Virus record (IMG/VR): IMGVR_UViG_3300035497_000313 | Coordinates: 38,437-102,436 of that record | Reading direction: 5' to 3' (one strand) | Length of the DNA stretch: 64,000 nt | Origin: a virus | Lineage: Duplodnaviria; Caudoviricetes | Shown here: one piece after another, positions 9,806 to 13,941 of the stretch | Position numbering within the stretch: the first letter of the stretch is position 1 | How the letters are laid out: each line of letters opens with the position of its first letter | Notes under the pieces: model-generated | Told to the model about the DNA's origin: nothing | Databases searched by the model: none | What the model saw: only the letters and a program-made list of their open reading frames with translations | Made by a program: the position numbers and the translations under genes

Positions 9806-11293
9806 TTATAATATATTTGTACCGTATATTGCTACAGGAACTATTAAATTGTTTTTTGACGTACCGCCAGAAGTAGAATATTCATAACCACCCCATATGT
9901 ATAATTCCGTAGATGACTTAATAGAAAATTGCCGTGTATACCATGTATTGCCACCTACCCATTGGTCAGATACACACATCATCATAGTTGTATATCCAGC
10001 AGTAGCATAGTTTGTGCCAACTCTAAACTTTTTCTGTAGAATCGTACAGTTTTTAGAACCCCTATCACTATCTAAAATATATTCAATAACCAAATATTTA
10101 AAATCTGCAACAGAATGAGTTAATGATACTGATTGTGCTGAAAATTCATTAAGATTCCCATAATCATTTTTATTACTATTTTCCCAAAGTATACCTGAGT
10201 CGACACCCAAGGTTGTTTTAACACCAGCGACATCAGTTGCTCCTGTACCACCATATTTTATAGGCAAAGTACCGTATACACCAAGTGTTACGTCTTTGGT
10301 TCCATCAAATGTAACTAGAGAAGTACTTGCTAAATTGACTGACATAGCCCTAGGATTATTTAATCTTTCAGATGTGGCAACATACGTTATTTTAACATCT
10401 CCTGTACTACCATTAACTGACGTTACTGTATTTACTTGGGCACCTGAAGCTATACCATCTAATTTTGCTTTATCACTTGCTGACATTAAACCATCTGTTG
10501 ACTGTGAAGCAGTACTGTATGTCGTATCAGTAAGACTAACAGTTGTGTTAGAACTTTGATTTGCTGAAAATGTTGCAACTTGAGTATTATTTTGCTTAAT
10601 TGTTAATGTTCCATTATTAACAGTAGGAATTGTAGGTGTATCATTTAAATCTGAATAACTACCACTCGATGCTACTGTTGCAAGCCCTAAGTTACTACGT
10701 GCCGTTGTAGCATCCGTTGCGCCTGTGCCACCTCGAGTTATAGGCAAAGTACCCGTTACACCGGGTGTTATGTTAATAGAACCGTCAAACGAAGATGCAG
10801 AAGTACTTCCTAAGTCAGTCTGTATAGTTCTGGAATTATATAATTTTGTTGCAGTAGAAGCATTTCCACTTATACTATTTCCCAATGTATTGTTACATTT
10901 AACAGGCACACCATCAGAACTAAAATAAACTGGATAAGTAGAAGAACCAACTGCACTAGATAAATTAAGACTATCTGCTGTAGCAGCAGAACTAATATTA
11001 GTTGCCGTACCTGTAAGTCCTATACTTAATTTCTTAGTACTACTATTTTGAGATAATGTAACAGTCATACCATTTGATTTTGAACTGCCAACATCAATTA
11101 AATCAGTTCCAAGCTTTTTTGCTGTTACTACACCATCTTTAACAGAACTTGCTTCAGTAGCTGTGTCAGCATTACCTTTTAACGACCCAGTTATTGTTCC
11201 CCCTACCTCTAAATTATTTGCAATATAAGCATCGCCATCTGTTTTATTATCAGTATTTAGAACTTGTAATTTTTCTTTACCTGTATAAGACAT
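9806..11293 (-). CDS. tail fibre protein
   Basis: Two GTLPI..GGTGATD repeats, GLMSASDKAKLDGI motif, C-terminal receptor-binding-like domain. Confidence 0.8.
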   Translation of the reverse strand: MSYTGKEKLQVLNTDNKTDGDAYIANNLEVGGTITGSLKGNADTATEASSVKDGVVTAKKLGTDLIDVGSSKSNGMTVTLSQNSSTKKLSIGLTGTATNISSAATADSLNLSSAVGSSTYPVYFSSDGVPVKCNNTLGNSISGNASTATKLYNSRTIQTDLGSTSASSFDGSINITPGVTGTLPITRGGTGATDATTARSNLGLATVASSGSYSDLNDTPTIPTVNNGTLTIKQNNTQVATFSANQSSNTTVSLTDTTYSTASQSTDGLMSASDKAKLDGIASGAQVNTVTSVNGSTGDVKITYVATSERLNNPRAMSVNLASTSLVTFDGTKDVTLGVYGTLPIKYGGTGATDVAGVKTTLGVDSGILWENSNKNDYGNLNEFSAQSVSLTHSVADFKYLVIEYILDSDRGSKNCTILQKKFRVGTNYATAGYTTMMMCVSDQWVGGNTWYTRQFSIKSSTELYIWGGYEYSTSGGTSKNNLIVPVAIYGTNIL

Positions 11294-11367
11294 TGTTTTT
11301 ATCTTCCTTTATGTTTTTTCTACATTATAACACAATACCTTTCATTCTGTCTAATTTCATTCTAAAT

Positions 11368-11401
11368 AAAAAGTAGTTATAAATAATTATAACTACTTTT
11401 T
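11368..11401 (-). terminator. intrinsic terminator closing the pentamer array
   Basis: AAAAAGTAGTTATA-loop-TATAACTACTTTTT followed by a U-rich tail. Confidence 0.7.
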
Positions 11402-11413
11402 ACCTTGTTATTT

Positions 11414-12090
11414 CGTTCAATGCCTATACGTTACAAAAATTAACTACACAATTCCAATACTATTCCGCACTTCACTCTGCGCTTCCTTTACGTAACCGAA
11501 CGAAACTAAACGTCACATTTCCTTAACAATACCGTACTCTACTTCACAATACTAAGCCTACACTTATCAAAACCGTACACTACGAAACCTTTACATAACA
11601 TCACGAAGCTGAACATAGCTTTTCCACGGCATTACTCAACGTTGCAATTCCTTAACTGCGCAATTCATATCCATTACGATACTTAACTTGACAATTCCAA
11701 TACAGAGCCAAACTAAACTTTACAGTTCCAACGCTTTTTGATACATCACTCTACATTTCCATTACCTTACGACACTTTACTCAGCTTAGCCATTACCAAA
11801 CTAAAACATACATTACCATTACTATACAATACGGCACTCGTCTTGACCATTACTTTACTGGACTTTACTTCGCATTTCTTTTACCATACATCTCCGAACG
11901 TAGCTTTCACAATACATAGCGTTTTATTACAGTACTGTACCGTTCCTATACTGGACTAAACTCAACATTACCTTTACTTGGCTGTTCCATACTATTCCGT
12001 ACCGCTACTTTACGATACTTCCCTTCACAACACCGCACCGTTGCTAGCCACAACGTAACTTAACAGGACCGCCCAGCACAAAGCCTTTGC
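11414..12090 (-). repeat. non-coding pentamer/hexamer array (candidate guide RNA)
   Basis: About 110 pentamers, all but 4 starting with G (mostly GT/GC/GA + NNN), in 22 blocks each opened by a hexamer (consensus GTAAWG); no minus-strand ORF. Confidence 0.9.
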
Positions 12091-12091
12091 A

Positions 12092-12724
12092 TTATTTATC
12101 GTCTTTATTACCACCTACGGTATTACCATTTTCGTCTAATAATTCATATCGGAAGGACCCCTTTCCAGAGTTACGCCATTGTAAGAAACCATTATACCTA
12201 CCATAATTAAGCCACTCTTTTACAAGTTCTTCAAGTGTATCATCTAATATTGTAATTCCAAATGTACAAGTAGAACCAGCATTTATTTCTTCACTTATTG
12301 CAATACTTATTCTTTCACCTTGCATTGTTTGTGCTCTTAATGGTCTTTGACATTCTGTAATTTCTGTAATATTTTCAATTTTATTTTTTCTATCGTCAAT
12401 AAATACACATAAGTCTATTACTTTCTTATATGCTTTAATTGCTTTTGACTTACTACCTGTTGCCATTCTCATTGCACTACAAGCTGACTTAAAGAAACCT
12501 TTAATTTGATAATCATAAATAAAAGGTGTACCATCTTCTAACTTAGGAAACCAAGTCTTTCCTTTTTCTACTACTTCGTCTACACCTACAGAAGCTACTT
12601 CATCTTCAATAGTGTTTGCATCGGGTGACTTACTTCCTATAAAGGAACGATAAATATCTTTATCACCTGTTTGTGTTCCTAAAACTGATTGTGTAAATGT
12701 GATTTTTACTTTTAAATTTTTCAT
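12092..12724 (-). CDS. stand-alone Cas7/RAMP-like protein
   Basis: N-terminal strand + LG; PFIYDYQIKGFFKSA (RAMP P.I.g..lKG..r); C-terminal glycine-rich loop GFLQWRNSGKGSF; AGGAG SD. Confidence 0.75.
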   Translation of the reverse strand: MKNLKVKITFTQSVLGTQTGDKDIYRSFIGSKSPDANTIEDEVASVGVDEVVEKGKTWFPKLEDGTPFIYDYQIKGFFKSACSAMRMATGSKSKAIKAYKKVIDLCVFIDDRKNKIENITEITECQRPLRAQTMQGERISIAISEEINAGSTCTFGITILDDTLEELVKEWLNYGRYNGFLQWRNSGKGSFRYELLDENGNTVGGNKDDK

Positions 12725-13506: not shown

Positions 13507-13941
13507 TTATTTTATACCTGAATCACTACAACCACAAACAAATTCATCTGATGAATAATGTCTAAATACCATATTTTCATCTTCTATCATATGTGGTTGT
13601 TTAAGCCATTCTATTTCTTTTTGTAGAGCTTCATCTCTACTACAATTTTTGCCTGAAAAATCTCCATACCAAAAATCAAATGGAGCAATCCAATTCTTAT
13701 GTATTCTTGTTTTAGCATAATCTTCGATTGACAAATTTTTAAACCATTCAAAATTAGTTGTATCGTTTTTATGCTGTTCTAAATAATTATCAACTACCTT
13801 ATGAAAAGTTAATTCAACTTGCTTACAATCTGTAACAGTAAATTCAATATTTAATCTTTGTATTGTACCTTCTATACAAAGTTGATTAAAATCAAATTCT
13901 ATTGTTGCTGTAAAACCTTTATAATATAATTTATTATCCAT
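13507..13941 (-). CDS. HicB-like N-terminal domain protein
   Basis: YKGFTATIEFD...IEGTI...FHKVVDNYLE. Confidence 0.4.
   Translation of the reverse strand: MDNKLYYKGFTATIEFDFNQLCIEGTIQRLNIEFTVTDCKQVELTFHKVVDNYLEQHKNDTTNFEWFKNLSIEDYAKTRIHKNWIAPFDFWYGDFSGKNCSRDEALQKEIEWLKQPHMIEDENMVFRHYSSDEFVCGCSDSGIK

What the first reader, a model, noticed from the sequence alone, without database searches (positions are those of the whole stretch)
11414..12090. Second-order punctuation of the array into 22 guide-sized blocks
Seen: a hexamer (GTAATG, GTAAAG, GTTAAG, GTATTG and similar, nearly always ending in G and so creating GG, often followed by GAAAT/GAATT) shifts the phase by +1. The 21 complete blocks measure 46,36,31,26,41,26,31,31,26,31,31,31,26,21,26,36,31,36,36,31,31 nt. 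All are 6+5n, mode 31, and they sum to 661, matching the coordinates. Blocks differ in sequence, so this is not slippage of a single repeat. Inference: the hexamer is a processing or filament start/stop signal that yields about 22 separate guides, analogous to repeat-spacer units.
Basis: partly seen in the sequence, partly recalled or inferred. Interest (0 to 1): 0.85.

Follow-up and report, generated by a model that had tools for sequence, protein, structure and literature searches.

The report
Phage VIPR guide array, +1 punctuation
The 680-base non-coding tract is the guide-RNA array of a phage VIPR system, a recently described relative of CRISPR, and a conserved one-base "GG" step about every 31 bases divides it into about 21 short modules; the system is known, but this way of delimiting modules seems not to have been characterised.

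Summary
On the minus strand, 12084-11409 is a run of 131 G-Y-N-N-N units. All shifts are +1. Their spacing (sd 5.5 nt) is far more regular than random placement.

The punctuation is conserved. In 70 distinct arrays next to homologues of the upstream gene, units are 5 nt (3714) or 6 nt (669), and under 1% have other lengths. Blocks average 31-32 nt. The junction consensus is GYAAN-GG-AANN, and its GG is the slowest-evolving part of the array.

The upstream 210-aa protein has a Cas7/Csm3 RAMP fold. The locus fits the VIPR systems described in 2026 preprints, in the YNNNG repeat variant. Those preprints mention tail-less "staggered" arrays with a 1-nt overlap. I found one such -1 array in L078. 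The window's stagger is +1, with shorter modules of 4-9 units.

Reading the modules as separate guide or filament units is the best-supported explanation, but it is unproven: I have no RNA ends and found no targets.

The scan has noted solo-RAMP genes with 5-nt arrays before, in at least 11 other genomes.

The parts
12092..12724 (-). vipr-like gene: 210-aa solo RAMP (Cas7/Csm3 fold), G-loop G-x-G-Q-W-R-N-S-G-x-G
   Evidence: ORF. No Pfam or PHROG family. The family profile hits type VII Cas7 (E=6e-6) and Csm4. AF2 model pLDDT 91.7. Foldseek top hits are type VII Cas7 and Csm3, TM 0.5-0.59. hhalign to SUSP1 Vipr is full length, E=5.8e-4.
12085..12091 (-). leader between the stop codon and block 1; reads T-GCAAAG and with the next G forms a junction-like GCAAAG|G
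   Evidence: Sequence. Relatives likewise start the array with a junction motif right after the stop codon.
11409..12084 (-). whole array: 131 G-Y-N-N-N units, 21 of them 6 nt; 10% C
   Evidence: RNA fold of 11405-12095 (array plus flanks) is no more stable than shuffles, z=0.18.
12039..12084 (-). block 1, 46 nt (9 units)
12003..12038 (-). block 2, 36 nt
11972..12002 (-). block 3, 31 nt
11946..11971 (-). block 4, 26 nt (the boundary with block 5 depends on the parse: one search gives 31 and 36)
11905..11945 (-). block 5, 41 nt; ends GTGAAA, one of two junctions without GG
11879..11904 (-). block 6, 26 nt; ends GTAAAA, the second junction without GG
11848..11878 (-). block 7, 31 nt
11817..11847 (-). 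block 8, 31 nt
11791..11816 (-). block 9, 26 nt
11760..11790 (-). block 10, 31 nt
11729..11759 (-). block 11, 31 nt
11698..11728 (-). block 12, 31 nt
11672..11697 (-). block 13, 26 nt
11651..11671 (-). block 14, 21 nt (shortest, 4 units)
11625..11650 (-). block 15, 26 nt
11589..11624 (-). block 16, 36 nt
11558..11588 (-). block 17, 31 nt
11522..11557 (-). block 18, 36 nt
11486..11521 (-). block 19, 36 nt
11455..11485 (-). block 20, 31 nt
11424..11454 (-). block 21, 31 nt
11409..11423 (-). terminal remnant of 15 nt (GCATT GAACG AAATA) that decays into the terminator
11364..11405 (-). AT-rich hairpin followed by U-rich sequence; likely intrinsic terminator that ends the gene-plus-array transcript
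   Evidence: Fold -18.9 kcal/mol, z=-7.6, none of 200 shuffles folds as well. The consensus scan did not call it, because that scan needs at least 3 G-C pairs.

Best explanation
The locus is a VIPR (Viral Interference Programmable Repeat) system. It consists of a solo Cas7-fold RAMP gene (Vipr) and, in its 3' untranslated region, a vrRNA array built from x-G-Y-N-N pentamers, the 'YNNNG' variant of the published GGY/NN repeat.

By homology with the solved SUSP1 complex, one Vipr protomer should bind each pentamer. It would hold the invariant G and the pyrimidine and expose the variable bases.

The second-order punctuation is a dedicated junction with consensus G-Y-A-A-N-G|G-A-A-N-N. It puts two anchor Gs side by side and moves the register by +1. 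A filament growing in one register therefore cannot continue in phase. Inferred consequence: the single transcript is divided into 21-22 tail-less modules of 4-9 protomer sites (mode 6, about one helical turn), and each module acts as its own guide or filament unit.

Shown here: the grammar, its conservation and constraint, the independence of module lengths, the protein fold, and co-orientation with a terminator. Taken from the preprints: the filament and guide mechanism. Open: whether modules are physically cut apart, by Vipr or by a host RNase, or work as beads on one RNA; and which of the three variable bases are read.
For: 1. Grammar. 131 units, 21 hexamers, only +1 shifts, spacing sd 5.5 nt against 25.6 for random placement.

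2. Conservation. At least 557 viral contigs encode a homologue. Of the 80 fetched, 77 have a period-5 G array, 76 of them directly downstream of the gene. In 70 distinct arrays there are 3714 pentamers, 669 hexamers and 44 units of other lengths. Blocks of 21, 26, 31, 36 and 41 nt number 62, 112, 149, 108 and 67.

3. Junction. 231 of 236 junctions in 29 non-homologous relatives, and 18 of 20 in the window, contain GG. The logo is GYAAN-GG-AANN-GY.

4. Constraint. Divergence between related arrays is 0.008-0.04 at the junction GG and its A and 0.03-0.04 at the anchor G. At variable positions it is 0.11-0.25, and at 4-fold sites of the adjacent gene 0.12-0.18.

5. Modules, not a lattice. In 30 non-redundant arrays (216 blocks), adjacent block lengths correlate at -0.008 and the variance of cumulative lengths grows nearly linearly.

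6. Modular evolution. Indels between relatives are 5n or 5n+k nt, where k is the number of junctions removed. Switches between conserved and replaced segments cluster at the junction unit: 23 of 78 unique events against 16% expected, p=0.002. This result is confounded by junction conservation.

7. Array start. Arrays start with a junction motif right after the stop codon.

8. Protein. RAMP G-loop match to type VII Cas7. Confident model, with Cas7/Csm3 as top structural matches. Full-length though weak profile match to SUSP1 Vipr.

9. Repeat variant explained. SUSP1 residues W178 and R179, which hold G2 and Y3, align with the near-invariant W183 and R184 here. H17 and D177, which hold G1, align with T17 and Q182 here (residue roles from 10.64898/2026.04.26.720927). 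This matches the loss of the first G of GGY.

10. A parallel case. L078 carries a second, canonical Vipr (GEWR loop; BLASTP E=1e-11 to SUSP1) with a GGYNN array punctuated by -1 steps (GGCA|GG) every 8-17 units. A one-base register change is thus a recurrent delimiter of tail-less vrRNA arrays.

11. RNA properties. The RNA is unstructured (z=0.18) and ends at a strong hairpin.
Against: There are no RNA-end or expression data, so cutting at junctions is not shown.

No target was found for any block. I tried 0-3 nt skip rules with 2, 3 or 4 read bases per unit against the phage's own 102 kb and 80 related loci, and two exact-pattern scans of IMG/VR. These searches were small or required exact matches, so they weigh little.

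Modules of 4-8 units carry only 8-16 read bases if the published two-base code applies. That is short for a specific guide.

Homology to an experimentally studied Vipr is weak (hhalign probability 29%).

No recognisable vap accessory gene was found next to the gene.

Mean module size (6.2-6.5 units) is close to the published 6 protomers per turn, so a structural per-turn role cannot be excluded.
Confidence: 0.6

Rival explanations
1. One continuous Vipr filament coats the whole 680-nt RNA. The extra base about once per six protomers is a structural relief or hinge, roughly one per helical turn, and does not mark functional units.
For: The published binary filament has six protomers per turn (10.64898/2026.04.26.720927). 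Mean module size here is 6.2-6.5 units. The mean unit length of 5.15-5.2 nt is similar in almost all arrays.
Against: Module lengths range from 4 to 8 units and are statistically independent: adjacent correlation is -0.008 and cumulative variance is near-linear. A geometric phase constraint predicts compensation between neighbours. The junction is a specific, strongly constrained motif (GG plus A-rich flanks), not merely an extra base. SUSP1 arrays keep a strict 5-nt register for 10-16 units with no relief. The canonical array in L078 uses a -1 step, the opposite sign.
Confidence: 0.17
2. The array is a decoy or sponge RNA rather than a set of guides. It would be a dense track of protomer sites that titrates Vipr proteins, its own or a competitor's, or a host factor that binds GGA. 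The variable bases would carry no targeting information.
For: No targets were found. Variable positions are not under purifying selection. The VIPR literature describes solo vrRNAs used by satellites to misdirect a phage's Vipr (10.64898/2026.10.15.759431). About 21 GGA-containing junctions recall CsrB-type sponges; that comparison is from my own knowledge.
Against: Variable positions diverge about twice as fast as 4-fold sites in close pairs (0.22-0.25 against 0.12), and whole segments get replaced. That looks like diversifying turnover of information, not neutral filler. A sponge would not need regularly sized modules or a register reset.
Confidence: 0.12
3. The hexamers are evolutionary scars. 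The array grew by duplication of an ancestral 31-nt unit, and the +1 positions have no present function.
For: Autocorrelation at lag 31 is slightly higher than at lag 5. Arrays change by indels of units and blocks.
Against: The junction GG and its A are the slowest-evolving positions, about 5-20 times slower than 4-fold sites. The same grammar recurs in 30 arrays with no detectable sequence homology to one another.
Confidence: 0.04
4. The periodicity acts at the DNA level. Two units span 10.33 bp, close to the helical repeat, so the tract could be a protein-wrapping site such as a centromere, a packaging site or an origin.
For: A mean unit of 5.16 nt gives 10.33 bp per two units.
Against: The pattern is strictly strand-asymmetric, with G on the coding-sense strand only. 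The tract always lies between the stop codon of a RAMP gene and a terminator. There is no lattice locking. The partner protein has an RNA-binding Cas7 fold.
Confidence: 0.03

Closest known systems
VIPR type II systems (Escherichia phage SUSP1, Pseudomonas fulva prophage); bioRxiv 10.64898/2026.04.26.720920 and 10.64898/2026.04.26.720927
   Same: Both have a phage-encoded solo RAMP of about 200 aa with an RRM core, a G-loop and a thumb. Both have adjacent non-coding tandem pentamers with an invariant G and pyrimidine and hypervariable bases. The G-loop W-R pair that holds G2 and Y3 is conserved.
   Different: SUSP1 repeats are GGYNN in strict register for 10-16 units, and each vrRNA ends in a roughly 60-nt structured tail. 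Here the first G is free (x-G-Y-N-N). The SUSP1 G1 contacts H17 and D177 align with T and Q. There is no tail and no structure. Units of 4-9 repeats follow one another in a single tract, separated only by a +1 junction. No vap gene is recognisable.
'Staggered vrRNA arrays' of the VIPR preprint (Fig. [quoted passage not shown]
   Same: A tail-less continuous array in which a one-base register change marks unit boundaries. L078:610-965 shows such an array next to a canonical Vipr.
   Different: The legend describes an overlap, that is a -1 step. In L078 this is GGCA|GG every 8-17 GGYNN units. The window has a +1 step at GYAAN-G|GAANN every 4-9 units of x-G-Y-N-N. The figure is not held, so I cannot tell whether the +1 form is also shown there. 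The text does not list staggered arrays among the architectures confirmed by small-RNA sequencing.
Class 1 CRISPR crRNPs (type III Csm3/Cmr4 and type VII Cas7 backbones)
   Same: The protein fold is shared. Both polymerise along the guide with a fixed footprint. About six backbone subunits per guide, and guide lengths that differ by whole footprints, are also shared; those two points are from established knowledge of type I and type III complexes.
   Different: The footprint is 5 nt rather than 6. There are no identical repeats, no cas1, cas2, cas5, cas6 or cas10, and no spacer acquisition. Anchor bases are embedded in every unit rather than in a repeat-derived handle.

Membership tests
VIPR system | Vipr protein: minimal RAMP with a single RRM core, a glycine-rich loop and a thumb hairpin | tested here: met
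   AF2 model pLDDT 91.7 with a long beta-hairpin at residues 122-147 and a C-terminal G-loop. Foldseek top hits are type VII Cas7 and Csm3, probability 1.00. The profile hits the Cas7 and Csm4 G-loop.
VIPR system | Sequence homology to an experimentally studied Vipr (SUSP1, KT454805.2 28474-29061) | tested here: inconclusive
   hhalign covers the full length (174 columns), E=5.8e-4, but probability is only 29%. The profile search of the SUSP1 genome found nothing.
VIPR system | Adjacent non-coding tandem pentanucleotide repeats with conserved G(G)Y and variable N positions (the preprint accepts the variants NNNGG, YNNNG and NNNNG) | tested here: met
   G at position 1 in 95-97% of units and Y at position 2 in 73-85%; the other positions vary. 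This is the YNNNG variant.
VIPR system | Stand-alone locus in a virus, with no CRISPR array or other cas genes | tested here: met
   No tandem repeat array. The eight neighbouring proteins have no cas family. The phage context includes tail-fibre genes. In relatives the locus sits beside integrase and the cI and cro genes. I did not scan the whole genome for cas genes.
VIPR system | vap accessory gene next to vipr | tested here: inconclusive
   The upstream ORFs (81 and 143 aa) have no family. In relatives the upstream neighbour is often a cro-like HTH protein, which may or may not count as a vap.
VIPR system | vrRNA is expressed and co-purifies with Vipr | not testable with these tools
   Only indirect evidence: same strand, no gap after the stop codon, a terminator hairpin downstream.
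VIPR system | Variable bases match natural DNA targets under a gapped skip rule | tested here: inconclusive
   Nothing above shuffled controls in the phage's own genome plus 80 loci. Two exact IMG/VR pattern scans returned nothing. The search space was far smaller than in the preprint.
VIPR type II (SUSP1-like) | Each vrRNA has 9-16 GGYNN repeats capped by a conserved structured 3' tail | tested here: not met
   The first G is not conserved. Modules have 4-9 units. No tail or structure is present. SUSP1 itself shows tails and strict register.
Staggered vrRNA array (1-nt overlap) | Consecutive tail-less vrRNAs share one nucleotide, a -1 register step | tested here: not met
   All 21 steps in the window and 669 of 713 irregular units in the 70 arrays are +1. 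A -1 array of the published kind is seen in L078.
CRISPR array | Near-identical direct repeats that alternate with unique spacers | tested here: not met
   TRF finds no repeat in 11400-12100. Only an 8-11-nt degenerate junction motif recurs.

The most novel reading that the evidence does not exclude
The +1 GG junction is a previously uncharacterised, self-sufficient delimiter of vrRNAs. Without a tail, ribozyme or separate promoter, one inserted anchor G resets the Vipr filament register and so defines short guides of about 6 protomers. These guides would read three bases per repeat (G-Y sequestered, NNN read) instead of two. That implies a second VIPR code with a different skip rule, made possible by the H17-to-T and D177-to-Q changes in the G1 pocket.
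Probability: 0.3. Interest if true: 0.7.

Novelty: new variant of a known kind. Interest (0 to 1): 0.5.

Why it matters
VIPR systems were described only in 2026. Experimental work so far covers tailed type II vrRNAs and a few other architectures.

This protein family is very large: 1614 clusters at 50% identity and 3725 hits among the 90%-identity clusters. It is mostly found in uncultured gut phages.

It packs about 20 modules into one untranslated tract, using a one-base register shift as the only delimiter. If the modules are guides, this is the most compact multiplexed guide array known. It would also give a simple rule for designing tail-less multiplex VIPR arrays.

The x-G-Y-N-N repeat, together with the matching substitutions in the G1 pocket, gives a testable structure-to-code relationship.

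In temperate relatives the locus sits directly after cro. That position fits the proposed role of VIPR in conflicts between phages.

Tried and rejected
- Rfam, with permissive thresholds, found no family.
- TRF found no tandem repeat in the tract.
- blastn of the locus against GenBank phages found nothing. tblastn found only four unannotated human-faecal phages.
- Pfam, PHROGs and PADLOC gave no family for the protein, apart from a chance-level Cas6d hit.
- My first idea was that the +1 steps correct DNA or duplex helical phase (5.16 x 2 = 10.33). I dropped it because block lengths are independent, with no lattice, and because the tract is strand-asymmetric and sits in a 3' UTR.
- Self-target search by blastn-short and ungapped scans was no better than shuffles.
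- Gapped-code target searches used 2, 3 or 4 read bases per unit and DNA periods of 2-6, against 1.5 Mb. Only period 5 gave an excess, and those hits were unmasked pieces of homologous arrays. The best remaining hits were A-rich chance matches.
- Two exact gapped patterns from blocks 1 and 5 returned nothing in IMG/VR.
- A shared GAACGAA motif near the array's 3' end proved not to be general: it lies near the end in 3 of 30 arrays.
Self-assembly therefore rests on homology only.
- The preprint's supplementary files and figures are not held. I could not check which VIPR type this family belongs to, or what Fig. S18 shows.

Full report
**What is there.**
All genes in this part of the window are on the minus strand. 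A 210-aa ORF (12724-12092) stops 8 nt before a non-coding tract that runs to an AT-rich hairpin at 11405-11364. That hairpin folds at -18.9 kcal/mol, z=-7.6. A promoter-like site for the next gene, a tail-fibre homologue, follows.

Read on the minus strand, the tract is a chain of G-Y-N-N-N units. G is at position 1 in 107 of 113 pentamers and T at position 2 in 80 of 113. Identity autocorrelation peaks at lags 5 and 31. This is the only period-5 region in the 102-kb genome record. The array is 10% C. As RNA, the array region folds no better than shuffled sequence, z=0.18.

**The observation.**
The phase of the G anchors advances by exactly +1, 21 times, and never by any other step. A different parse moves some boundaries by one unit. 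18 of 20 junctions carry GG. 12 of the 21 blocks that follow a junction begin GAAnn or GATAT. Spacing sd is 5.5 nt. Random placement gives a mean sd of 25.6 and never 10.3 or less in 200,000 trials.

**Is it conserved?**
The upstream protein has at least 557 relatives in IMG/VR, 3725 hits among the 90%-identity clusters and 1614 clusters at 50% identity. None carries a Pfam domain or an informative name.

Of the 80 fetched loci, 77 have a period-5 G array, 76 of them immediately downstream of the gene. In 70 distinct arrays a length-free segmentation finds 3714 pentamers, 669 hexamers and only 44 units of other lengths. Mean unit length is 5.1-5.2 nt in almost every array. Block lengths of 21, 26, 31, 36 and 41 nt number 62, 112, 149, 108 and 67, with a mean of 31.5.

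In these GC-richer relatives position 2 is C rather than T, so the unit is G-Y-N-N-N. Anchoring on GG captures 231 of 236 junctions in 29 mutually non-homologous relatives. The resulting logo is GYAAN-GG-AANN-GY.

**Constraint and evolution.**
Related arrays are alignable at 85-98% identity. They differ by indels of 5, 10, 20 and 25 nt (whole units) or 21, 31, 78 and 83 nt (units plus 1 or 3 junctions), so register is always kept.

I used independent pairs and compared the arrays with 4-fold degenerate sites of the adjacent gene:

| Site class | Divergence, (stringent alignment filter) | Divergence, (close pairs, no identity filter) |
|---|---|---|
| Anchor G | 0.026 | 0.035 |
| Junction GG | 0.008-0.014 | 0.03-0.08 |
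| Junction A | 0.039 | 0.10 |
| Variable positions 3-5 | 0.11-0.15 | 0.22-0.25 |
| 4-fold sites of the gene | 0.18 | 0.12 |

The junction is the most constrained element. The variable bases are not under purifying selection and may turn over faster than neutral. Part of that turnover is local replacement of segments. The ends of replaced segments cluster at the junction unit: 23 of 78 unique events against 16% expected, p=0.002. The junction's own conservation biases this test.

**Modules or lattice?**
I first suspected a helical phase correction, because 2 x 5.16 = 10.33. That model predicts compensation between neighbouring blocks. In 30 non-redundant arrays (216 blocks; mean 32.2, sd 8.4, against about 30 for random placement), adjacent lengths correlate at -0.008. 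The variance of sums of k blocks grows almost linearly, reaching 356 against 423 expected at k=6. The blocks therefore behave as independent modules with a preferred size. Arrays also begin with a junction motif directly after the stop codon.

**The protein.**
A profile of 87 family members matches the C-terminal G-loop of type VII CRISPR Cas7 (E=6e-6) and of Csm4. The AlphaFold model is confident, with pLDDT 91.7. Its best structural matches are type VII Cas7 and type III Csm3, with TM 0.5-0.59 and probability 1.00. It is a solo Cas7-fold RAMP.

In the roughly 40-kb temperate relatives, the gene sits just after a cro-like HTH gene. It faces the cI-like repressor and integrase and precedes early genes (Gp157, SSB, NinB).

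**What is known.**

- VIPR systems pair a phage-encoded minimal RAMP (Vipr) with vrRNAs made of GGY/NN pentamers.
- One protomer binds each repeat in a right-handed filament, with six protomers per turn in the binary complex.
- GGY is sequestered: G1 by H17 and D177, G2 by R138 and W178, and Y3 in a pocket that includes R179.
- The NN bases read double-stranded DNA with a one-base skip.
- Seven types exist. Variant repeats NNNGG, YNNNG and NNNNG are mentioned.
- Array architectures include 'staggered arrays with overlapping vrRNAs'. The Fig. S18 legend says the vrRNAs derive from 1-nt overlapping positions, so that the end of one marks the start of the next. The text does not list these among the architectures confirmed by small-RNA sequencing.

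**Direct comparison.**
I fetched the SUSP1 locus (KT454805.2). Its four vrRNAs keep a strict 5-nt register for 10-16 GGYNN units, and each ends in a roughly 60-nt tail with a hairpin. There are no internal register steps.

hhalign of my family profile against SUSP1 Vipr aligns 174 columns end to end. The match is weak: E=5.8e-4, probability 29%.

In that alignment the SUSP1 loop G-D177-W178-R179 corresponds to G-Q182-W183-R184 here. W183 and R184 are near-invariant in the family. SUSP1 H17 corresponds to T17. The residues that hold G2 and Y3 are thus kept, and both that hold G1 are replaced. This fits the repeat here being x-G-Y-N-N. It is an inference from a weak alignment.

**A natural control.**
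Locus L078 carries a second system. Its protein has a G-E-W-R-P loop and is clearly related to SUSP1 Vipr (BLASTP E=1e-11). It is followed by a canonical GGYNN array. In that array a 4-nt unit, GGCA before GG, shifts the register by -1 every 8-17 units. This fits the preprint's '1-nt overlap' wording.

A one-base register change therefore recurs as the delimiter of tail-less arrays. In the window's family, however, the step is +1, it uses a different motif, and the modules are about half as long. With three free bases per unit, a module of about 6 units carries roughly 18 variable bases. That is comparable with 9-16 units x 2 bases in type II. The arithmetic suggests, but does not show, that three bases per unit are read.

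**Guide function.**
I could not find targets:

- The phage's own genome gave nothing above shuffles.
- Gapped searches under 11 combinations of read bases and skip lengths, against 1.5 Mb of related loci plus the genome, gave only array-to-array homology at period 5 and A-rich chance hits.
- Two exact gapped patterns returned nothing in IMG/VR.

These searches are far smaller than the preprint's, so the result is inconclusive.

**Verdict.**
The finding is real and conserved. It is best read as the unit delimiter of a tail-less VIPR array. My odds for the readings are:

| Reading | Probability |
|---|---|
| The locus is a VIPR system | about 0.9 |
| Junctions define separate filament or guide units | about 0.6 |
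| The units are cut apart | about 0.4 |
| Per-turn structural hinge | 0.17 |
| Decoy RNA | 0.12 |
| Duplication scars | 0.04 |
| DNA-level site | 0.03 |

The kind of system is known.

Noticed in passing
L078:2-965: A second VIPR system lies on the same contig. It has a canonical Vipr (G-E-W-R-P loop; BLASTP E=1e-11 to SUSP1 Vipr) followed by a GGYNN array. In that array a 4-nt unit (GGCA before GG) shifts the register by -1 every 8-17 units. This is probably the 'staggered, 1-nt overlapping' architecture of the preprint.
   Followed up: partly
L003:4607-5231 (also L013, L061, L062, L077): An extra ORF of about 205 aa sits between the vipr gene and the array. Its last residues repeat the Vipr C-terminus (…KGRFTWEEIQ). 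It looks like a mobile insertion, perhaps a homing-endonuclease-type gene, into the 3' end of vipr with duplication of the end.
   Followed up: no
L001-L080, about 3 kb upstream of each match: In the roughly 40-kb temperate relatives the vipr-plus-array unit is the first cargo after the cro-like gene of the immunity region. The order is integrase, HTH gene, cI-like gene, divergent cro-like gene, vipr, array, then Gp157, SSB and NinB. That is an early-expressed position.
   Followed up: partly
window 11409-11423; L023:2994; L072:5033: The motif GAACGAA(A/G)TA lies near the 3' end of the array, just before the terminator, in the window and in one group of relatives. Looser forms (GAAACGAAA) occur in a few others. 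It is not general: it lies near the end in 3 of 30 non-redundant arrays.
   Followed up: partly
window 11324-11353 (-): A strong sigma-70-like promoter (TAGACA, 18-nt spacer, TG-TATAAT, 11 of 12 matches) lies directly downstream of the array's terminator hairpin. It presumably drives the tail-fibre homologue at 9806-11293.
   Followed up: no
window 13507-13941 (-): A 144-aa ORF two genes upstream of vipr has a HicB-like antitoxin N-terminus (PHROG 9151, E=4e-7).
   Followed up: no
related arrays, L001-L080: In close pairs, the variable positions of the pentamers diverge about twice as fast as 4-fold degenerate sites of the adjacent gene (0.22-0.25 against 0.12). Position 5, the former G1 site, is the fastest. 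Part of this comes from replacement of whole segments.
   Followed up: partly
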